DNA of 18,194 nucleotides from a virus (lineage: Duplodnaviria; Heunggongvirae; Uroviricota; Caudoviricetes). The translations under genes were made by a program, and so were the position numbers. Below are positions 2,275 to 14,882 of the stretch, one piece after another. The notes beneath the pieces were generated by a model. That model ran no database searches and was not told the origin of the DNA. It saw only the letters and a list, made by a program, of their open reading frames with translations. The stretch is from IMG/VR virus record IMGVR_UViG_3300029107_000044, positions 1 through 18,194 of that record. One strand, written 5' to 3'. Position 1 is the stretch's first letter; every line of letters starts with the position of its first letter.

Positions 2275-4749
2275 TTAAAAATCAGCCTGACTCGGGATCA
2301 GTTTTTGCCAGATAGCTGAAACGTATTTTGCCTGGTAACGGGCGTCATCAAGTGCATTGTGGCGCTCACCTTCGAATGGAATATCCGTTCTGGCATCGAA
2401 GTTCAGGGCTTTTCCCAGCTCAACGATTGTGCGCACATCGCGATCGTTGCAATAACGCCACGGGCAGGGGATCCCCTGCCGTTCGTATGAACGGCGTAAA
2501 ATCACGTTGTCGAAGTTGGCTCCATTTCCCCAGACCTGAACAAAAAACTCACCGGAGTTTTCATCGATAAATTCCCGCAATTGCAGCAATGCATCATCTA
2601 ACGGGATTTCATCGGTCAGAATGGCAGATTGCGCCTCGCGTGATTGCTTAAGCCACCATTTAATGACGTCACGATCAATGACTCCGCCAGCAGTATCCAG
2701 ATCGATGGTCTTGCTAAATTCCGGCCCCATCTCTCCGGTTTCGGGATCAAAGAATTTACCGCCAATAGAGTTGATTGGCGCATCAGGATTTGTTCCCATC
2801 GTTTCAAGATCGATCATCAGATGGTGCCACACCCGGCTGGTGGATGTGATAACGTGATGACCGTTCACCGCAATTAAGGGATCTGTCGCCTCGCCAGTTT
2901 CACTATCGCTGGCGTGGCCCTGAGCGCTTCCCGCATTCTCCTTGTGTGGATGTTCAGCGCCTTCCATTTTCTCCGAATCGTCTTCCTGAACTTCGACCTG
3001 ATTCTCGTCATCGAACGTTTCCTGGTATGTTGCGTCACCCATCACCGCGCCACAATCAGGGCAGTTGCCGCCACCGCTCTTACCGCAGGCGGTGCAGATC
3101 TTTTCCGGTTCCTGTTGCGCTACTGGTTCGGATTGTTTCGTTTCTGGCTCGTTTTGTTGCGTATTTGGGCTGTTTTGCTCCGCTTTCTGGTCGTTCTGTT
3201 CCGTTTCTTGCTGGTTCTGGTTCACAGAATCGCGGGTTTCAATTCCCTTCACCCACTTCGGATCATTCGGGTCGCTAATCCCTGCAACAAATTCTCCGCG
3301 AGAGGCAGCAAGCAACTGATTGGCGTCAGGCTGGCTGATATTGGCTGCCTGCATAATTTTGTTTACTTCGTCAGCGGTAACTTTTACCGGCTCTGGTTGT
3401 GCTGCCGTGTCAGACGCACCAGTATTTTGTTGTGAGCCTGAGTATGTGCCGTTTTTACGGGCAAAATATTCTTCTTTCGTGATTTCAGTAGCCCCGGCAG
3501 CCAGCGCCTTTTCCAGACCTGAAAGTTTGTTTGCACGACCGTATTTTTCGCCATCCTTATCTGTGAAGAGGAAGTAGAACGGCCCCTCACGCTCTACAGA
3601 TGGTTCGACTTCCACTTCGCATTCGGTTTTTTCGTTGTCCGGCATTGCCGTTTCCACTGCATCAGTTTCAGGTACTGGCGACGGGAGAGTATCAGTTGTG
3701 CTCTGATTTGTTCCTTCATCTTCAAATACGCCCTTTGTAGTCAGGTAGTCAGTGATGTATTTGTTCAGTGCCACAGGGTCTTTGTGAATGTCGATCGGAC
3801 GTTCACGGACAAGGCCAAAAATAGTCTGACGGTCGTAACGAATGGCATCAGGCTGTTTGCGCATTGATGCAGAAATACGCTTCCAGTCTTCGCGATCGTT
3901 CTCGATAACTTCATTTTTTGCCCAGCGATGGATGCTGCCGTCAATGTTTCCGGCATCAATGTCACCAGGCCACAGAGAGTAGGCCAGCTCTTCATCCAGC
4001 GTTTTCCATGTCTGCTTGTATTCGCGACGAATGGCAGTAGTGACAGGGTTGATTTTTTCTGCTGAGTTTTCAGTGTGCTGTCGGTTGACTCTGGCGCGGG
4101 CAAGATCAACAACAGAAGTATATGCACCACCTTCTTTGCGATCCTTTTCCTGGCGTTTTTTACGGTCGAGAAAATATGCCTGAACGTCGGGCCATTTGGC
4201 GGTTGGTTTTAAATCATGTCTGGCATCGTTGATGTATTCAATCTGACGTTCCGGATACATGGCGTTAATTTCTTTAGTCCGGATAATTGCTTCTGCGAGG
4301 TGTCCGTCAAAGGTCATCATGTCGTCATCACCAAGAAGCCCGCTTGCGTTGATGACCATATCCACGGTGACGTTTTCATGTGTGCCGAACTTAACGAGGA
4401 CAGCGGCCTGCTTGTCGTCGGATAACTGGTTAAAGTTAACAATTTCTGTATTCGGCTCTGGTTCGACCGGAACAAAGGAAGCGGATTCCTCATCCCAGCG
4501 GTTTTCCTGCATATATTCGGTATCCCAGGAATCAAGGGCGGGGCGGGCCATGCCGGGTTTATCCTCGCAGACAAGAAATTTATAAGCACAGTCCTGAGCA
4601 GCCGGATATTGCTCCAGGAATTGCCAGGTAAATTTGGCGCGGGCGCGGCGTTCGTCACCGGCTTCAATGGCAGTGGCTACAGCAACTGCACCTTCTTCCT
4701 TAATTGCCTGTTCGTCCGGAATGGCGGCGCAAATAAAGACTTTACTCAT
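2275..4749 (-). CDS. prophage exonuclease (exodeoxyribonuclease VIII / RecE-like linker with C-terminal DEDDh-type 3'-5' exonuclease domain)
   Basis: 824-aa ORF. Central segment (LLAASRGEF..GISDPNDPKWVKGI..CTACG..GGGNCPDCGAVMGDATYQETFD) closely matches the linker/zinc-ribbon region of Rac RecE as I recall it. C-terminal ~180 aa has DnaQ-like exonuclease motifs (MIDLETMG, HNALDDARY). Confidence 0.8.
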   Translation of the reverse strand: MSKVFICAAIPDEQAIKEEGAVAVATAIEAGDERRARAKFTWQFLEQYPAAQDCAYKFLVCEDKPGMARPALDSWDTEYMQENRWDEESASFVPVEPEPNTEIVNFNQLSDDKQAAVLVKFGTHENVTVDMVINASGLLGDDDMMTFDGHLAEAIIRTKEINAMYPERQIEYINDARHDLKPTAKWPDVQAYFLDRKKRQEKDRKEGGAYTSVVDLARARVNRQHTENSAEKINPVTTAIRREYKQTWKTLDEELAYSLWPGDIDAGNIDGSIHRWAKNEVIENDREDWKRISASMRKQPDAIRYDRQTIFGLVRERPIDIHKDPVALNKYITDYLTTKGVFEDEGTNQSTTDTLPSPVPETDAVETAMPDNEKTECEVEVEPSVEREGPFYFLFTDKDGEKYGRANKLSGLEKALAAGATEITKEEYFARKNGTYSGSQQNTGASDTAAQPEPVKVTADEVNKIMQAANISQPDANQLLAASRGEFVAGISDPNDPKWVKGIETRDSVNQNQQETEQNDQKAEQNSPNTQQNEPETKQSEPVAQQEPEKICTACGKSGGGNCPDCGAVMGDATYQETFDDENQVEVQEDDSEKMEGAEHPHKENAGSAQGHASDSETGEATDPLIAVNGHHVITSTSRVWHHLMIDLETMGTNPDAPINSIGGKFFDPETGEMGPEFSKTIDLDTAGGVIDRDVIKWWLKQSREAQSAILTDEIPLDDALLQLREFIDENSGEFFVQVWGNGANFDNVILRRSYERQGIPCPWRYCNDRDVRTIVELGKALNFDARTDIPFEGERHNALDDARYQAKYVSAIWQKLIPSQADF

Positions 4750-4872: not shown

Positions 4873-5094
4873 TCACCATGACTCTGCTTTTACAGGTAAA
4901 CCATCACGACCAAGGAAGACTTTAATCATGGTTTCCTTAATACAGTGTTGTGTGGAAAAATCACGAATATAGAGCCGTTGTTTTTTAATGTTGTTTACCG
5001 AAGCAATATATGTTCTTCCTTTATGAATAACATAATCACCGGGAGTCACGCACTGACGAGGAATCTCATCAGTTCCGAAGTGATGAGCAATCAT
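4873..5094 (-). CDS. hypothetical protein at the dicB position of the operon (not DicB-like)
   Basis: ORF-track 77-aa ORF; a GGAG RBS precedes the second in-frame ATG (5094), giving 73 aa. Lies downstream of DicF in the same operon direction; no similarity to K-12 DicB recognised. Confidence 0.4.
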
Positions 5095-5268
5095 AATTAT
5101 CTCCATTTTTACAAATGAACTTTGTTGATGCGGTGCCTGGTGCCTCCAGGTGACGTTAACCAGTTAACAATTAACGCCGGATACAGAGAATCCACCCATA
5201 ACACAGTTTTCTGTTTTAACTGTTCCGCGTGCGCTCAGCCGCATTCACCACATCACAAAATTCACTTT

Positions 5269-5326
5269 AAAAAGGGCGGCAGAGCAGTCACGGAGTAAAA
5301 CTGATACCGCCAAACGTCACCAGAAA
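5269..5326 (-). ncRNA. dicF: DicF small regulatory RNA (cell-division inhibitor sRNA targeting ftsZ mRNA)
   Basis: Minus-strand sequence TTTCTGGTGACGTTTGGCGGTATCAGTTTTACTCCGTGACTGCTCTGCCGCCC followed by TTTTT matches DicF as I recall it, including its intrinsic terminator. Synteny downstream of ydfC supports it. Confidence 0.85.
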
Positions 5327-5666
5327 ATTGATAACAGAGGGCGTTGCAGCGGGGTTGTCACTTAAGCGTATGGTCAACCTGACAACCCGGTGTCCTCAAC
5401 GGGGAAGGAATAACCCCGCCATACTTACCGCCGCGCCATTTCGCGGGTTGCCACAACCGGAAGCGCACGGTCGACGAAAATTTAACGACAGGCTATCTAT
5501 GAACCAGCTACCTCGCCGTGCGCTTTCGCGTTATGGTCTGACTTTTCAGGGAAATATCCTTTCAGTAAACTGTCAGTGCCGGATGCTCACCCGTGTCCGG
5601 CGCACGCACTCCACCTCACCCGTGGAGAACTCCTTAATTACCAACCTTAGCTTCGTTGGTTAGCTA

Positions 5667-5885
5667 TTAACGCGGGTATGTAATCATTCTGGCAATGCTT
5701 AATGCCGCTGCTTTTTCCAGATTGGTGATATCCTGCTCCAGAGAGAACAGATTTTCAGCCTGCTTAGCCCTGGCTTCATTAGCCCATTTCAGATCCTGCG
5801 CTGCATTAATTTTCTGGTGCATCCACTCATAAAGTTCATCATCGGTATAGTCTGGCGCGATGATAACGGGTTCTCGTTTCTGCAT
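5667..5885 (-). CDS. ydfC: YdfC-like prophage protein
   Basis: 72-aa ORF with AGGAA RBS before the ATG. Length and position (third gene after dicA, just upstream of DicF) match K-12 Qin ydfC (72 aa). Confidence 0.6.
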   Translation of the reverse strand: MQKREPVIIAPDYTDDELYEWMHQKINAAQDLKWANEARAKQAENLFSLEQDITNLEKAAALSIARMITYPR

Positions 5886-5914
5886 ACTGATTCCTTGCGG
5901 TGCTGTTTCGCTTA

Positions 5915-6043
5915 TCAGCCGTTAGATTTTGCCGAACTGGAAAGCGCCTGTTTAAATTCGCTGAAGCTGAGAGCTTCTTCGCCTTCGGCAAGGCCTTCGA
6001 AGTATTCTTCGTAAGCCTTTTCCATGATTGTGTCGAAATCCAT
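5915..6043 (-). CDS. ydfB: YdfB-like small protein (42 aa)
   Basis: Hand-translated ORF below the track's 60-aa cutoff: MDFDTIMEKAYEEYFEGLAEGEEALSFSEFKQALSSSAKSNG. Sits between the ydfA-like and ydfC-like genes; length matches K-12 ydfB (42 aa). Confidence 0.5.
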   Translation of the reverse strand: MDFDTIMEKAYEEYFEGLAEGEEALSFSEFKQALSSSAKSNG

Positions 6044-6044
6044 A

Positions 6045-6200
6045 TCACCCACCTGAATTTCTTTCCAGCCAGCGACGCGCTCCAGATTCGGTTTTAAACG
6101 TTTTGCTTTTGGTATACGTCATTGCGGTGAACGTGCCGTCCTGGTTTGGAAACACGCCGTACACCAGAGATTCGTTGTTGCCAAGATCGATAGTATCCAT
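6045..6200 (-). CDS. ydfA: YdfA-like small protein (51 aa)
   Basis: Internal ATG at 6200 with a GAGG RBS 5 nt upstream gives MDTIDLGNNESLVYGVFPNQDGTFTAMTYTKSKTFKTESGARRWLERNSGG (51 aa). First gene downstream of dicA; length matches K-12 ydfA. Confidence 0.5.
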   Translation of the reverse strand: MDTIDLGNNESLVYGVFPNQDGTFTAMTYTKSKTFKTESGARRWLERNSGG

Positions 6201-6314
6201 GCTGACCTCATTTCCCCTTAACGCCGGGGTAGCGGAACTGTTTGCTGAGAACACCGTGCGGTGTCTTGATGGAAAATAATTTAGAATAACCTAACATGAG
6301 AGGCAAGTGTTTTT

Positions 6315-6332
6315 TGTTAGATTGATCTAACA
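6315..6332. promoter_or_regulatory. 18-bp palindromic operator TGTTAGA-N4-TCTAACA upstream of the ydfA-dicF operon (putative DicA operator at the dicB-operon promoter)
   Basis: Perfect inverted repeat TGTTAGATTGATCTAACA between the dicA stop and the ydfA start. A second copy with identical arms lies at 6826-6843. Confidence 0.55.
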
Positions 6333-6368
6333 AAAAGGGTGGGCGCAACTAATCACTTGAAAAGAATG

Positions 6369-6776
6369 TTATTTTATTGATTTATTTTTACGCGCTTTAA
6401 GCATTTCTTCGAAGAGTTTGTTGAAGTTTTCTACTCTTGCGCGCATTTCAGACAGCAAGGCTTCCTGCTCGGAAGATGGAAGAGCATCGAATAATTCGAT
6501 CAATTCTTTGTGGTTGGGAGTTAGCTCTGTTTCCACATGAAGTTCTTGTGCAGGCACTGGTGCCTTGTCTTCGTCACCAAACATTAGCCATGTAGGTGAG
6601 CACTTCAGAGCATCCGCTAAAGCAAACAATCGTTTTCCGACTGGCTGGGTTTCGTCTCTTTCCCATTGTGAAATTGTGACGTGAGCAACTCCAGCGAGGC
6701 GCGCGGCTTCTCGTTGTGTTAAGCGTAATTCTTTTCGTCGCGCCAGAACTCGCTGGCCCAGGGTTCTTGTATCCAT
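6369..6776 (-). CDS. dicA: DicA-like HTH (XRE-family) repressor
   Basis: 135-aa ORF with an N-terminal XRE-type helix-turn-helix (LRLTQREAARLAGVAHVTISQWE) and no S24 peptidase domain. Length and divergent arrangement with a cro-like gene match K-12 dicA (135 aa). Confidence 0.8.
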   Translation of the reverse strand: MDTRTLGQRVLARRKELRLTQREAARLAGVAHVTISQWERDETQPVGKRLFALADALKCSPTWLMFGDEDKAPVPAQELHVETELTPNHKELIELFDALPSSEQEALLSEMRARVENFNKLFEEMLKARKNKSIK

Positions 6777-6798
6777 AGTTAGGTAATTCTAATTTTTC

Positions 6799-6843
6799 TT
6801 GACTTAGGTATCCCGCGCACAATAATGTTAGAAAAGTCTAACA
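6799..6843 (+). promoter_or_regulatory. divergent dicA/dicC control region: sigma-70 promoter (TTGACT-N17-ATAATG) overlapping an operator palindrome
   Basis: TTGACT at 6799-6804, 17-nt spacer, ATAATG at 6822-6827. Palindrome TGTTAGAAAAGTCTAACA at 6826-6843 overlaps the -10 and precedes the dicC RBS (GAGGGGG). Confidence 0.55.
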
Positions 6844-6856
6844 AGAGGGGGATTTG

Positions 6857-7084
6857 ATGCTTAAAGTTGACGCAATTACTTTTTTTGGCAGCAAAACAAA
6901 GCTTGCCAATGCCGCAGGAGTGAGGCTGGCAAGTGTTGCTGCTTGGGGGATACTGGTTCCTGAAGGTCGCGCGATGCGTCTACAGGAGGCATCTGGCGGG
7001 GAGCTTCAGTATGATCCCAAAGTTTATGATGAATATCGTAAGACGAAGCGGGCGGGGCGGTTGAACAATGAAAATCACTCCTGA
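6857..7084 (+). CDS. dicC: DicC/Cro-like small DNA-binding regulator (YdaS-like)
   Basis: 75-76-aa ORF divergent from dicA with a strong RBS. The track starts at TTG 6854; ATG 6857 is the likelier start. Length and position match K-12 dicC (76 aa). Confidence 0.65.
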   Translation: MLKVDAITFFGSKTKLANAAGVRLASVAAWGILVPEGRAMRLQEASGGELQYDPKVYDEYRKTKRAGRLNNENHS

Positions 7085-7589
7085 ACAGGCTCGTGAGGCT
7101 CTGGATGCCTGGATATGTCGACCAGGAATGACACAGGAGCAGGCGACGATATTAATCACTGAAGCATTCTGGGCTTTGAAAGAGCGCCCGAACATCGATG
7201 TTCAGCGTGTCACAGATGAAGGTGGCGCGGTTGATCAGCGAGCGCTTGGTGTTAATCGAGTGAAGATATTCGAACGCTGGAAGGCTATCGACACCAGGGA
7301 TAAGCGTGAAAAGTTCACGGCGCTAGTGCCTGCGATTATGGAGGCTATCCGGATTAGTGATTTCAGGTTGTATCGTGAAATTACTGACGGAAAAAGCATC
7401 ACGTGCATGATCGCCGGGTTAAACAAAGAATATGGCGATGTGGTGGAGTCCGGACTGCTTTTTGCTGATCCTGCCGTAGTGGATCGTGAAACTGACGAAC
7501 TTATAGAAAAAGCAATTGCTTTCAAGCTTGCGTATCGACAGCAATACCAACAAAAAGCTGGATGGAATTATGAGCCTTCTTTTTGCTGA
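7068..7589 (+). CDS. YdaT-like protein (CII-position regulator/toxin-domain family)
   Basis: 173-aa ORF overlapping the dicC end. Segment KIFERWKAIDTRDKREKFTALVPAIMEAI resembles the Rac YdaT sequence as I recall it. Confidence 0.55.
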   Translation: MKITPEQAREALDAWICRPGMTQEQATILITEAFWALKERPNIDVQRVTDEGGAVDQRALGVNRVKIFERWKAIDTRDKREKFTALVPAIMEAIRISDFRLYREITDGKSITCMIAGLNKEYGDVVESGLLFADPAVVDRETDELIEKAIAFKLAYRQQYQQKAGWNYEPSFC

Positions 7590-8535
7590 ACGCCCACTGG
7601 TTATAAACACGCAGCTGGCAATGAAAATTGGCTTAAACGAAGCCATTGTTTTGCAACAACTGCACTACTGGTTGAGAGATACCAACTCCGGCATGGAATG
7701 TGATGGTGTTCGCTGGATTTATAACACAACGGAACAATGGCTGGAACAGTTCCCATTCTGGTCAGAGTCAACGTTAAAGCGCGCGTTTGCAAGTCTGAAA
7801 ACGCTGGGGCTTTTGCGTTGTGAAAAGCTCAATAAATCAAAGCGCGATATGACCAATTTCTACACGATCAACTATGGGAGCGAGCTTTTAGATGGTGGCA
7901 AATTGAGCGAATCCATCGGTTCAAAATGCGCCGCTCCATCAGGTCAAAATGACACGATGGAAGAGGTCAAAATGAAACGCTCCATTGATTCAAAACGACC
8001 CAATGTCATCGGGTCAAAATGGCCTGATGATCTTACAGAGAATACAACAGAGATTACTACAGAGAATAAAAACACTTTTCGTCCGGAAGCTTCGCAACCG
8101 GACCCGCAGACGACTGAACAGGATTTTTTAACCCGGAACTCCGACGCGGTTGTGTTTAGTGCGAAAAAACGCCAGTGGGGTAGCAGGGAGGATTTGGCGT
8201 GTGCGCAGTGGATCTGGGGGCGGATCGTGGGTCTCTACGAACAGGCAGCCAGTGATGATGGCGAGATCATGCGACCAAAAGAGCCTAACTGGACTGCCTG
8301 GGCCAATGACGTGCGCACAATGCGGATGCTGGATGGCAGAAGCCACAGACAAATTTGCGAAATGTTTGGTCGGGTTCAGCGAGATCCATTCTGGGTAAAA
8401 AACATCATGAGCCCGTCAAAGCTCCGCGAAAAATGGGACGAACTGGTCATCCGCCTGGGACGTTCACCTGTACAGCGTTGTGTTAATCATATTTCTGAAC
8501 CGGATACAGAAATTCCGCCTGGTTTCAGAGGATAA
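7570..8535 (+). CDS. phage replication initiation protein (O-like replisome organiser with DnaT-like C-terminal domain)
   Basis: ATG 7570 is preceded by an RBS; the track ORF starts in-frame at 7516 inside the upstream gene. N-terminal HTH-like region, central repeat-containing linker that carries iterons in the DNA, C-terminal DnaT-like region (judged by eye). Confidence 0.7.
   Translation: MSLLFAERPLVINTQLAMKIGLNEAIVLQQLHYWLRDTNSGMECDGVRWIYNTTEQWLEQFPFWSESTLKRAFASLKTLGLLRCEKLNKSKRDMTNFYTINYGSELLDGGKLSESIGSKCAAPSGQNDTMEEVKMKRSIDSKRPNVIGSKWPDDLTENTTEITTENKNTFRPEASQPDPQTTEQDFLTRNSDAVVFSAKKRQWGSREDLACAQWIWGRIVGLYEQAASDDGEIMRPKEPNWTAWANDVRTMRMLDGRSHRQICEMFGRVQRDPFWVKNIMSPSKLREKWDELVIRLGRSPVQRCVNHISEPDTEIPPGFRG
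7918..8021 (+). repeat. putative replication origin: five direct iterons (GGTCAAAATG core) at ~23-bp spacing inside the initiator gene
   Basis: Repeats at 7918, 7941, 7964, 7988 (degenerate) and 8011, followed by an A-rich stretch at 8022-8090. Layout is analogous to lambda ori within gene O. Confidence 0.6.
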
Positions 8536-10683: not shown

Positions 10684-11017
10684 ATACAGCGAACTCCATT
10701 GGTTTAGTTGGATATTTACTGTGCTGGACAAAAACGGTTTGCGGGGAAATCTTAGTTAAGTAGAATGACTGCGGGTGCTTGAGGCTATCTGCCTCGGGCA
10801 CGAACACCAACGGCAGGTAGAGAAAAGCCCCAGTTAACATTACGCGTCCTGCAAGACGCTTAACATTAATCTGAGGCCAATTTCATGCCAGACACATGTA
10901 GGTTAGCCTCTTACGTGCCGAAAGGCAAGGAGAAGCAGGCTATTGTTAACACCAAGCTGTAATGTCCCCTTTGAACCATTCTAAAATGTCCCCAGACAAT
11001 TCTCTGGGGGATTTTTC

Positions 11018-14258: not shown

Positions 14259-14414
14259 ATGAAGCAGCAAAAGGCGATGTTAATCGCCCTGATCGTCATC
14301 TGTTTAACCGTCATAGTGACGGCACTGGTAACGAGGAAAGACCTCTGCGAGGTACGAATCAGAACCGGCCAGACGGAGGTCGCTGTCTTCACAGCTTACG
14401 AACCTGAGGAGTAA
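14259..14414 (+). CDS. hokD: HokD (RelF) Hok-family membrane toxin
   Basis: Hand-translated 51-aa ORF MKQQKAMLIALIVICLTVIVTALVTRKDLCEVRIRTGQTEVAVFTAYEPEE, a typical Hok sequence, with RBS AGGAGAAGCAGG upstream. Below the ORF-track size cutoff. Confidence 0.85.
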   Translation: MKQQKAMLIALIVICLTVIVTALVTRKDLCEVRIRTGQTEVAVFTAYEPEE

Positions 14415-14630: not shown

Positions 14631-14882
14631 ATGATGAACATCGAAGAACTGCGTAAAATTTTTTGTGAAGATGGCCTCTATGCTGTGTGCGTTGAAAATG
14701 GAAATCTTGTTAGTCATTACCGCATTATGTGTTTGCGAAAGAATGGGGCTGCGTTAATTAATTTTGTGGATGCTCGGGTCACGGACGGATTTATCTTGCG
14801 CGAAGGTGAGTTTGTCACTTCATTACAGGCATTGAAAGAGATCGGAATAAAAGCTGGCTTTTCTGCTTTTTCAGGAGAATAA
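14631..14882 (+). CDS. rem: Rem-like prophage protein (function unknown)
   Basis: 83-aa ORF downstream of hokD, matching K-12 Qin rem in length and position. Confidence 0.55.
   Translation: MMNIEELRKIFCEDGLYAVCVENGNLVSHYRIMCLRKNGAALINFVDARVTDGFILREGEFVTSLQALKEIGIKAGFSAFSGE

What the first reader, a model, noticed from the sequence alone, without database searches (positions are those of the whole stretch)
6315..6843. Two identical-arm 18-bp palindromes flanking dicA
TGTTAGA-N4-TCTAACA occurs at 6315-6332, upstream of the ydfA-DicF operon, and at 6826-6843, overlapping the -10 of the dicC promoter. This is the expected layout if one repressor shuts off both the division-inhibitor operon and the divergent cro-like gene, forming a compact immunity switch.
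Basis: seen in the sequence. Interest (0 to 1): 0.45.

Follow-up and report, generated by a model that had tools for sequence, protein, structure and literature searches.

The report
Operators of a Qin-type prophage repressor
The two identical-arm palindromes are real and are almost certainly the main binding sites of a DicA-like prophage repressor (and its Cro-like partner DicC), so this is the known Qin/DicA-DicC immunity switch in a variant allele, not a new kind of element.

Summary
Observation confirmed. TGTTAGA-N4-TCTAACA occurs exactly twice, at 6315-6332 and 6826-6843, and in none of 200 shuffles. The sites flank a 135-aa HTH repressor (6369-6776, minus strand).

This repressor is only 57% identical to K-12 DicA. 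It lies in a ~700-bp diverged immunity cassette (about 6255-6960) inside otherwise 97-100% Qin-like DNA.

6826-6843 is the positional ortholog of K-12 Oc, the operator shown in vivo to bind DicA. 6315-6332 lies 8 bp upstream of the inferred -35 of the ydfA-DicF promoter.

- 6279-6296 covers the spacer and -10 of that promoter.
- 6777-6794 abuts the repressor start codon.

All four sites sit at fixed offsets across the family. In 85 loci with this repressor allele the half-sites are nearly invariant while the central 4 bp vary. Operator positions 7 and 12 track the repressor and DicC allele: R/Y here, Y/R in K-12-type loci.

The allele-specific operator code and the likely DicA site at dicBp are modest additions.

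The parts
6826..6843 (.). Oc-equivalent operator. Perfect palindrome TGTTAGA-AAAG-TCTAACA, starting at the last base of the dicC promoter -10 and covering the expected start site.
   Evidence: It aligns with K-12 Oc. It sits 67 nt upstream of the repressor ATG, versus 66-68 nt in the relatives that have an upstream site there. K-12 Oc binds DicA in vivo (PMC3441716).
6315..6332 (.). Ob1-equivalent operator. Perfect palindrome TGTTAGA-TTGA-TCTAACA, 8 bp upstream of the inferred -35 of the ydfA (dicB-type) promoter. Complementarity extends to 6311-6336.
   Evidence: It aligns with K-12 TGTTAGCTATAGCATACA. It starts at nt 37 after the repressor stop, versus 36-41 in relatives. The arms are nearly invariant and the centre varies in 85 loci.
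6279..6296 (-). Ob2-equivalent weaker operator. Reads TGTTAGG-TTAT-TCTAAAT on the minus strand and overlaps the spacer and 5 of 6 bases of the inferred -10.
   Evidence: It is the third match in the window. It aligns with K-12 TGTTAGTCATGGCTAATC, which lies between TTGACC and TAATCT. It starts at nt 71-76 after the stop codon in relatives. None of its 12 core columns varies in 39 haplotypes.
6777..6794 (-). Oa-equivalent weaker site. Reads AATTAGA-ATTA-CCTAACT on the minus strand, directly abutting the repressor ATG and 4 bp upstream of the dicC -35.
   Evidence: It aligns with K-12 Oa, ATTTAGCATTAGCTAACT. It is invariant across 21 upstream haplotypes. In K-12, Oa was not bound by DicA in vivo (PMC3441716), so its ligand is uncertain.
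6369..6776 (-). Repressor: a 135-aa DicA homolog with an N-terminal P22 C2-type HTH domain and no peptidase domain.
   Evidence: 57% identity to K-12 DicA. Pfam HTH_3 only. P22 C2 N-terminal domain at E 1.3e-18. Identical to WP_000381212.1.
6857..7084 (+). dicC: a Cro-like regulator of the P22_Cro family. Its N-terminal HTH part belongs to the diverged cassette.
   Evidence: 86% identity to K-12 DicC, with all differences in residues 4-32. Pfam P22_Cro. P22 Cro structure 1rzs at E 1.2e-6. Its allele is linked to the repressor allele.
6799..6826 (+). dicC promoter (PR-like): TTGACT, 16 bp, AATAAT.
   Evidence: It is the only sigma-70-like match in 6000-7100. The K-12 dicC promoter at the equivalent place was supported by 5'RACE (PMC3441716).
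6278..6306 (-). Inferred ydfA/dicB-type promoter (PL-like): -35 TTGCCT at 6301-6306, 17-bp spacer, -10 TAAATT at 6278-6283.
   Evidence: Inferred from the alignment with K-12 TTGACC-17-TAATCT. The hexamers vary little while the first 6-7 spacer bases after the -35 vary freely. It scores 8 of 12, below the scan threshold. No start site has been mapped.
4873..6200 (-). Operon under that promoter: ydfA (6045-6200), ydfB (5915-6043), ydfC (5667-5885), DicF sRNA (5274-5325) and a Kil-like septation inhibitor (4873-5106). The exonuclease gene follows at 2275-4749.
   Evidence: tblastn to the K-12 proteins. Rfam DicF at 76.7 bits. PHROG 294 Kil at E 2.6e-34 and PHROG 2082 exonuclease.
7068..7589 (+). 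YdaT-family, CII-like gene downstream of dicC.
   Evidence: Pfam YdaT_toxin. PHROG 163 'CII-like transcriptional activator' at E 2.6e-40. YdaT acts as a CII analog in CP-933P (PMC8630535).
6255..6960 (.). Immunity cassette. This is the only stretch between 5133 and 7080 that diverges from K-12 Qin (35-83% identity per 40-bp window), with 87.5-100% (mostly 97-100%) identical flanks.
   Evidence: Sliding-window identity. The same cassette is present at 80% coverage or more in 566 of 5,426 complete E. coli genomes.
14631..14882 (+). rem: the antirepressor that relieves DicA repression in K-12.
   Evidence: 100% identity over 83 aa to annotated Rem. Function in K-12 from PMC10448788. Whether it acts on this repressor allele is untested.

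Best explanation
The two palindromes are the high-affinity operators of the Qin-type lambdoid immunity switch carried by this prophage.

Proposed mechanism:
- Dimers of the 135-aa DicA-like repressor, which has a P22 C2-type HTH domain, bind the 18-bp two-fold symmetric sites through the outer half-sites TGTTAG and CTAACA. The central 4 bp are not read base by base.
- At 6826-6843 the bound repressor covers the -10 edge and start site of the dicC promoter. This shuts off dicC and the CII-like and replication genes behind it. By analogy with K-12 it also stimulates the repressor's own weak promoter.
- At 6315-6332, together with the weaker site 6279-6296 that overlaps the spacer and -10, it shuts off the PL-like operon ydfA-ydfB-ydfC-DicF-kil.
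- The Cro-like DicC probably binds the same set of sites, including 6777-6794 next to the repressor start, to repress the repressor gene. That would make the unit bistable.
- Derepression is expected through the Rem antirepressor, not RecA cleavage.

What is shown here: sequence, positions, conservation, covariation and homology. What is shown only in K-12: binding to Oc, repression of dicC and dicBp, and DicC occupancy on both sides of dicA. What is inferred: binding by this allele, promoter positions, the roles of the two weak sites, and the activation of the repressor's own promoter.
For: 1. There are two exact copies and none in 200 shuffles. Every match with up to 3 mismatches in 18 kb lies within 6279-6843.

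2. Positional orthology with K-12 Oc and with the two sites at K-12 dicBp. Oc is genetically defined: single-base mutants abolish DicA binding in vivo (PMC3441716).

3. In the closer family members from several enterobacterial genera that show all four sites, they sit at fixed offsets. They start 66-68 and 18 nt upstream of the ATG, and at nt 36-41 and 71-76 after the stop codon.

4. Natural variation in 85 loci with this repressor allele:
- The 24 core half-site columns of the two perfect palindromes are variable in 3 (12%).
- The 24 core columns of the two weak sites are variable in 0.
- Other intergenic columns are variable in 47 of 91 (52%).
- The central-4 columns of the perfect sites are variable in 5 of 8.

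5. Covariation with the proteins:
- In 85 window-type loci (recognition helix VAHVTISQWERDETQP, DicC VRLASVAAWG), position 7 is a purine in 338 of 340 sites and position 12 a pyrimidine in 339 of 340.
- In 81 K-12-type loci (ISHVSVSQWER[G/D]DSEP, DicC IRLASLYSWKG), position 7 is a pyrimidine and position 12 a purine in 324 of 324 sites.
- More distant recognition helices (SxSSISLWE) carry TATTGAG-TTTT-CTCAATA-type sites at the same upstream offset in three loci (exact in L021, one base different in L018 and L019). In L021 a matching copy also lies downstream.

6. The stretch that diverges from K-12 Qin (about 6255-6960) contains exactly the repressor, the DicC HTH and all four sites. This is a classic immunity-region swap.

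7. The repressor N-terminal domain matches P22 C2 at E 1.3e-18 and DicC matches P22 Cro. From my own knowledge, P22 operators are also 18 bp with an uncontacted central 4 bp.

8. K-12 DicC ChIP-seq shows one inferred site on each side of dicA, with a TTNG...CNAA palindromic motif (PMC11430063).
Against: - No binding data exist for this allele.
- Even in K-12 the DicA site at dicBp is listed as low-evidence with unknown location (PMC7567609).
- In K-12, DicA did not bind Oa or Om in vivo, so the ligand of the two weak sites is uncertain.
- 6315-6332 does not overlap the core promoter. It is centred near -52 if my promoter assignment is right, so on its own it might not occlude RNA polymerase.
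- The ydfA promoter is only an 8-of-12 consensus match and was not reported by the scan.
- The 85 and 81 loci are closely related, so site counts overstate the number of independent events.
Confidence: 0.88

Rival explanations
1. The palindromes are primarily DicC (Cro-like) sites, and the 135-aa repressor binds elsewhere or only to one of them.
For: K-12 DicC ChIP-seq gives its strongest signal at its own promoter region in Qin, where one DicC site is inferred on each side of dicA, with a matching palindromic motif. The DicC HTH covaries with operator positions 7 and 12 just as the repressor does.
Against: K-12 DicA binds Oc in vivo, and a single A-to-C change in the arm abolishes binding. 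Lambdoid repressor and Cro proteins normally share operators, so this adds to the main explanation more than it competes with it.
Confidence: 0.06
2. The extended palindrome at 6311-6336 acts as an RNA hairpin that terminates repressor-gene transcription, and not as a protein-binding site.
For: The minus-strand RNA folds into an 11-bp stem at -9.6 to -10.2 kcal/mol, z = -3.6. It lies 37 nt after the repressor stop codon.
Against: No U-tract follows the stem (AACACUUGCC), and the terminator scan did not report it. The orthologous K-12 sequence folds no better than shuffles (-4.7 kcal/mol, z = -0.4). The same arms recur at 6826-6843, where termination makes no sense. Natural variants keep the arm sequence itself and show no compensatory pair changes.
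Confidence: 0.03
3. The sites are targets of a host factor, for example the TetR-family YjdC or H-NS/Cnu, and not of the prophage regulators.
For: YjdC ChIP-qPCR enrichment at the dic locus, and a claim that YjdC binds the dicC operator region (PMC9283627). Cnu-H-NS antagonises DicA at Oc.
Against: A chromosomal host factor cannot explain why positions 7 and 12 switch together with the prophage repressor and DicC allele. It also cannot explain why distant repressor alleles carry different half-sites at the same offsets.
Confidence: 0.02
4. Chance palindromes in AT-rich intergenic DNA.
For: None beyond the AT-richness of the spacers.
Against: No exact match occurred in any of 200 shuffles. The sites are conserved at fixed offsets across genera.
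Confidence: 0.01

Closest known systems
DicA/DicC immunity locus of the E. coli K-12 Qin cryptic prophage (operator Oc, dicCp, dicBp)
   Same: The gene order is the same: dicC, then divergent dicA, then ydfABC-DicF. The repressor has the same 135-aa length and the Cro partner is of the P22_Cro family. The outer half-site TGTTAG/CTAACA, the 18-bp geometry and the four site positions all match. rem is present.
   Different: The repressor is only 57% identical, and the DicC HTH differs. Operator positions 7 and 12 are R/Y here against Y/R in K-12, and the centre is free here against YATR in K-12. Ob1 is a perfect copy of the Oc arms here but degenerate in K-12 (GCATACA). dicB and ydfD are replaced by a Kil-like gene. 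A CII-like ydaT gene and a replication-type gene (the 321-aa ORF at 7570-8535) are still present downstream of dicC.
Phage P22 c2 repressor / Cro with the OR and OL operators
   Same: The N-terminal DNA-binding domain is homologous (E 1.3e-18) and DicC is homologous to P22 Cro. The operators are 18 bp and two-fold symmetric, with a variable central 4 bp. Operators sit at both a PR-like and a PL-like promoter.
   Different: There is no C-terminal S24 peptidase or RecA-cleavage domain: the protein is 135 aa against 216 aa (PMC10448788). The half-site differs (TGTTAGR against ATTTAAG). Only two recognisable sites occur per promoter, 36 and 49 bp apart centre to centre, not three closely packed operators.
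PaaR2/YdaS/YdaT immunity region of CP-933P (E. coli O157:H7)
   Same: It is a lambdoid switch in a cryptic prophage with a repressor that is not cleaved in the SOS response. It has a Cro analog, a YdaT-type CII analog, 18-bp palindromes at both PR/PRM and PL, and a leaderless repressor mRNA (PMC8630535).
   Different: The repressor family is unrelated, the repeat consensus differs (GTTTAGTAA), there are four equally spaced palindromes, and a toxin-antitoxin pair is embedded in the repressor operon.

Membership tests
Qin-type DicA/DicC immunity switch | A ~135-aa DicA-family HTH repressor without a peptidase domain | tested here: met
   57% identity over 132 aa to K-12 DicA at E 4e-55. Only HTH_3-type Pfam domains.
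Qin-type DicA/DicC immunity switch | A divergently transcribed DicC (P22_Cro family) gene | tested here: met
   86% identity to K-12 DicC. PF14549 at E 4.9e-12.
Qin-type DicA/DicC immunity switch | An Oc-type inverted repeat (TGTTAG-N6-CTAACA) at the -10/start site of the dicC promoter | tested here: met
   6826-6843 aligns with K-12 Oc. It lies next to TTGACT-16-AATAAT. It starts 67 nt upstream of the ATG, against 68 nt in K-12.
Qin-type DicA/DicC immunity switch | Operator copies at the promoter of the downstream ydfABC-DicF operon | tested here: met
   6315-6332 and 6279-6296 align with the two K-12 copies around TTGACC-17-TAATCT. DicF is present.
Qin-type DicA/DicC immunity switch | The repressor actually binds these sites and represses both promoters | not testable with these tools
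   Only K-12 data exist. Support here is comparative.
Qin-type DicA/DicC immunity switch | The controlled operon encodes DicB | tested here: not met
   No tblastn match to DicB or YdfD. A Kil-like ORF (PHROG 294) takes their place. DicF is retained, so the operon is still a division-inhibitor operon.
P22 c2-type repressor-operator system | A C2-type N-terminal HTH domain | tested here: met
   1adr and 2r1j at E about 1e-18 over residues 1-71.
P22 c2-type repressor-operator system | 18-bp symmetric operators with a sequence-tolerant central 4 bp | tested here: met
   At Oc and Ob1 the arms are near-invariant, and 15 distinct central tetramers occur at those two sites among 85 loci.
P22 c2-type repressor-operator system | A C-terminal LexA-like autocleavage domain for RecA-dependent induction | tested here: not met
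   The protein is 135 aa with no Peptidase_S24 hit. Literature states that DicA lacks the Ala-Gly site.
P22 c2-type repressor-operator system | Three tandem, closely spaced operators at OR and at OL | tested here: not met
   Only two recognisable sites occur per promoter, 49 and 36 bp apart. The K-12 'Om' position is not conserved here.
Intrinsic terminator | A GC-rich stem followed by a U-tract | tested here: not met
   The stem is AU-rich with no U-tract, and it is absent from the terminator scan.

The most novel reading that the evidence does not exclude
The window carries a second, heteroimmune specificity class of the DicA/DicC switch. Both regulators would discriminate their own operators from those of K-12-type Qin solely through the purine/pyrimidine identity of the inner positions 7 and 12, and perhaps the central tetramer, while sharing the outer TGTTAG core. 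A further possibility is that the perfect copies on either side of the repressor gene, 511 bp apart, are bridged by repressor oligomers into a loop enclosing the gene, as lambda OL and OR are.
Probability: 0.4. Interest if true: 0.4.

Novelty: new member of a known kind. Interest (0 to 1): 0.25.

Why it matters
DicA-type repressors keep the cell-division inhibitors DicF, DicB and Kil silent. The immunity cassette found here is present in 566 of 5,426 complete E. coli genomes (about 10%).

Even for K-12, the DicA site at the dicB promoter is catalogued as low-evidence with unknown location. In this allele the promoter-distal site is a perfect copy of the Oc arms. That points directly at where the repressor should bind at that promoter and gives a clean substrate for footprinting.

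The R/Y swap at positions 7 and 12 between the two allele classes is a simple, testable hypothesis. It could explain how related prophages avoid cross-repression.

None of this changes the general picture of lambdoid switches.

Tried and rejected
- Terminator reading of the 6311-6336 hairpin: rejected. There is no U-tract, it is not conserved in K-12, and the same arms recur at the dicC promoter.
- Chance: rejected.
- More copies elsewhere in the window, for example near rem or the Q gene: none found with up to 2 mismatches to the core or up to 3 to the full pattern.
- An 'Om'-type third site between Oc and Oa: the K-12 Om sequence is not conserved here, and Om is not bound by DicA in K-12.
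- Phage database: only one record carries this cassette at 80% or more of its length. It is an 8-kb 'Escherichia phage Rac' fragment at 89% identity, annotated dicA/dicC, and no characterised phage was found.
- Literature search for the exact arm sequences found nothing relevant. The gSELEX paper gave no DicA motif.
- Not attempted: a structure prediction of the repressor-DNA complex to explain the position 7/12 preference, because the tools give no protein-DNA model.

Full report
TGTTAGATTGATCTAACA lies at 6315-6332 and TGTTAGAAAAGTCTAACA at 6826-6843.
- These are the only exact matches to TGTTAGA-N4-TCTAACA in the 18,194-bp window. No exact match appeared in 200 dinucleotide-preserving shuffles.
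- Allowing 3 mismatches to the full pattern, or 2 to the core TGTTAG-N6-CTAACA, adds a single further site at 6279-6296, in the same region.
- The two perfect copies bracket a 135-aa ORF on the minus strand at 6369-6776.

**2. Context.** The window is a Qin-like lambdoid prophage of Escherichia.
- The 5600-7100 segment is 100% identical to E. coli 07-4299. The whole window matches complete E. coli genomes at up to 96.8-97.3% identity.
- Reading leftward on the minus strand from the repressor, the genes are:
  - ydfA (6045-6200), ydfB (5915-6043) and ydfC (5667-5885).
  - DicF sRNA (5274-5325, Rfam 76.7 bits).
  - A 77-aa Kil-like septation inhibitor (4873-5106, PHROG 294, E 2.6e-34) and an 824-aa exonuclease.
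  - An integrase-like gene.
- There is no dicB or ydfD.
- Reading rightward on the plus strand, the genes are:
  - A P22_Cro-family dicC (6857-7084).
  - A YdaT-type, CII-like gene (7068-7589).
  - A 321-aa gene annotated only as hypothetical (7570-8535), a DUF977 gene, relBE, hokD, rem (14631-14882), ydfU and an antiterminator Q gene.

**3. The repressor is a DicA homolog, not K-12 DicA.**
- It is 57% identical to K-12 DicA.
- DicC is 86% identical to its K-12 counterpart, and every difference falls in residues 4-32, the HTH part.
- A sliding comparison with K-12 Qin gives 87.5-100% (mostly 97-100%) identity from 5133 to about 6252 and from about 6961 to 7080. Between about 6255 and 6960 it is only 35-83%.
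- The diverged block contains the DicC HTH, the repressor and every operator-like site. This is the classic signature of an immunity-region swap between lambdoid phages.
- The cassette is common. It occurs at 80% coverage or more in 566 of 5,426 complete E. coli genomes, and no matching genome holds more than two places.

**4. Orthology with mapped K-12 sites.** In the alignment with K-12, the sites correspond as follows.
- 6826-6843 falls on Oc (TTGTTAGTCATAACTAACAA). Yun et al. showed that Oc titrates DicA, binds DicA in an in vivo repression assay, loses binding through one A-to-C change in the arm, and overlaps the -10 of the 5'RACE-supported dicC promoter (PMC3441716).
- In the window the only sigma-70-like match is TTGACT-16-AATAAT at 6799-6826. 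The palindrome therefore shares one base with the -10 and covers roughly -7 to +11, the same geometry as in K-12.
- 6315-6332 aligns with K-12 TGTTAGCTATAGCATACA.
- 6279-6296 aligns with K-12 TGTTAGTCATGGCTAATC, which lies between TTGACC and TAATCT.
- By that alignment the window's ydfA promoter is TTGCCT (6301-6306), 17 bp, TAAATT (6278-6283). This is my inference. It scores 8 of 12 and falls below the scan threshold.
- So the perfect palindrome sits 8 bp upstream of the -35, centred near -52. The degenerate copy covers the spacer and -10, centred near -16.
- A fourth site at 6777-6794 (AATTAGA-ATTA-CCTAACT on the minus strand) aligns with K-12 Oa. It abuts the repressor ATG and lies 4 bp upstream of the dicC -35.

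**5. Comparative test across the family.**
- Fifty-seven loci came from one-genome-per-species contigs, and 160 came from IMG/VR.
- In the closer family members from several enterobacterial genera (examples: Escherichia, Citrobacter, Buttiauxella, Serratia, Rosenbergiella, Rahnella) the four sites recur at fixed offsets. They start 66-68 and 18 nt before the ATG, and at nt 36-41 and 71-76 after the stop codon.
- More distant recognition helices (SxSSISLWE) carry TATTGAG-TTTT-CTCAATA-type sites at the same upstream offset in three loci (exact in L021, one base different in L018 and L019). In L021 a matching copy lies downstream as well. One locus (L038) has a P22-like ATTAAAG-N4-CTTAAAT site.

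**6. Natural mutagenesis within the allele.** Among 85 loci with this repressor allele there are 21 upstream and 39 downstream haplotypes. Column variability was as follows.

| Column class | Variable columns | Mean minor-haplotype fraction |
|---|---|---|
| Core half-site columns, two perfect palindromes | 3 of 24 (12%) | 0.008 |
| Core half-site columns, two weak sites | 0 of 24 | 0.000 |
| Other intergenic columns | 47 of 91 (52%) | 0.086 |
| Central-4 columns of the perfect sites | 5 of 8 | 0.213 |

- At Ob1 alone the centre occurs as TCAA, CCAA, CTAA, TTGA, TTTA, TTAA, TCTA, CAAA or TAAA.
- This is the pattern expected for a dimer that reads two outer half-sites. From my own knowledge it also matches P22 c2 operators. 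The N-terminal domain here matches P22 C2 at E 1.3e-18.

**7. Covariation with the proteins**.

| Locus class | Loci | Position 7 | Position 12 | Central 4 bp |
|---|---|---|---|---|
| Window-type (repressor VAHVTISQWERDETQP, DicC ...VRLASVAAWG...) | 85 | purine in 338 of 340 sites | pyrimidine in 339 of 340 | variable |
| K-12-type (repressor ISHVSVSQWER[G/D]DSEP, DicC ...IRLASLYSWKG...) | 81 | pyrimidine in 324 of 324 | purine in 324 of 324 | YATR at Oc, Ob1 and Ob2; ATTA at Oa |

- Within each class, transitions at positions 7 and 12 are common and transversions are essentially absent.
- The loci are closely related, so these counts are not independent events.
- Even so, the switch at all four sites together with both regulators argues that the sites are read by the prophage's own proteins. 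It also suggests a distinct immunity specificity, which is untested.

**8. Mechanism.**
- The repressor dimer at 6826-6843 blocks dicC transcription. In K-12 it also activates the repressor's own weak promoter.
- Repressor at 6315-6332, probably helping occupancy of 6279-6296, blocks the PL-like promoter of ydfABC-DicF-kil.
- DicC probably binds the same sites. K-12 DicC ChIP-seq gives one inferred site on each side of dicA, a TTNG...CNAA palindromic motif, and 48- to 84-fold repression of dicA (PMC11430063).
- Because K-12 DicA did not bind Oa in vivo, the two weak sites may be DicC-preferred or may need cooperativity. I cannot decide between these.
- The repressor lacks a cleavage domain, and rem, the K-12 DicA antirepressor (PMC10448788), is present. 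Induction is therefore expected through an antirepressor or through bistable switching, not RecA.

**9. Rivals.**
- Terminator hairpin at 6311-6336: the RNA folds at -10.2 kcal/mol, but no U-tract follows. The K-12 ortholog folds like shuffled sequence, and natural variants preserve the arm sequence itself without compensatory pair changes.
- Host factors such as YjdC or H-NS/Cnu cannot explain covariation with the prophage alleles.
- Chance is excluded.

**10. Novelty.**
- The switch, Oc and the two-sided layout are known for K-12 Qin.
- New here is a second allele class with a perfect Ob1 copy and an R/Y code at positions 7 and 12.
- The data also give an indication of where the DicA-type repressor binds at the dicB-type promoter, which a recent compilation lists as unknown (PMC7567609).
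- This is a new member of a known kind and of modest interest.

Noticed in passing
window 4873-5106 (-): The window has no dicB or ydfD (no tblastn hit). Downstream of DicF sits a 77-aa ORF matching PHROG 294, 'Kil protein for bacterial septation inhibition' (E 2.6e-34). Identity to K-12 Qin breaks at about 5130. The repressed operon therefore carries DicF plus a Kil-type inhibitor in place of DicB.
   Followed up: partly
window 6255-6960: A sharp mosaic boundary: a ~700-bp immunity cassette with 35-83% identity to K-12 Qin, flanked by 87.5-100% (mostly 97-100%) identical DNA. The right junction falls inside dicC at about codon 35. The left junction falls just downstream of the inferred -10 of the ydfA promoter.
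   Followed up: yes
window 6774-6794 (-): The repressor ATG (6774-6776) has no Shine-Dalgarno sequence. A good -10-like hexamer, TAGAAT (6786-6791, minus strand), lies inside the Oa-like site and would start transcription about 3 nt before the ATG. This suggests a leaderless or near-leaderless repressor mRNA, as for lambda cI and paaR2. No start-site data were available.
   Followed up: no
window 6273-6295 versus 6778-6800: The two weak sites and their flanks are 83% complementary over 23 nt (inverted repeat I1). Each promoter therefore has one site centred roughly -48 to -52 and one at the core or start site. The weak sites are mirror images of each other.
   Followed up: no
window 10773-10944 (+): An Rfam sok antitoxin hit (99.8 bits) lies well away from the annotated hokD homolog (14259-14411). 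This suggests a second hok/sok-type locus or remnant in a region that related genomes annotate as frameshifted pseudogenes.
   Followed up: no
window 14631-14882 (+): A rem homolog, 100% identical to annotated Rem. Rem is the antirepressor of K-12 DicA. Whether it can act on a repressor only 57% identical to DicA is an open question.
   Followed up: partly
loci L011, L018, L019: DicA-type immunity loci appear on contigs binned as Collinsella, Bacillota and Veillonella parvula MAGs. L011 is close to K-12 DicA: the first 62 residues shown differ at one position. These are most likely enterobacterial prophage contigs that were mis-binned.
   Followed up: no
locus L038 (Symbiopectobacterium purcellii); loci L018-L021: Distant DicA-family repressors carry different half-sites at the same offset upstream of the ATG. 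L038 has ATTAAAG-AAAA-CTTAAAT, which is P22-like. Loci with the SxSSISLWE helix (L018, L019, L021) have TATTGAG-TTTT-CTCAATA-type sites, exact in L021. This is a ready-made series for studying how recognition helix and operator co-evolve.
   Followed up: partly
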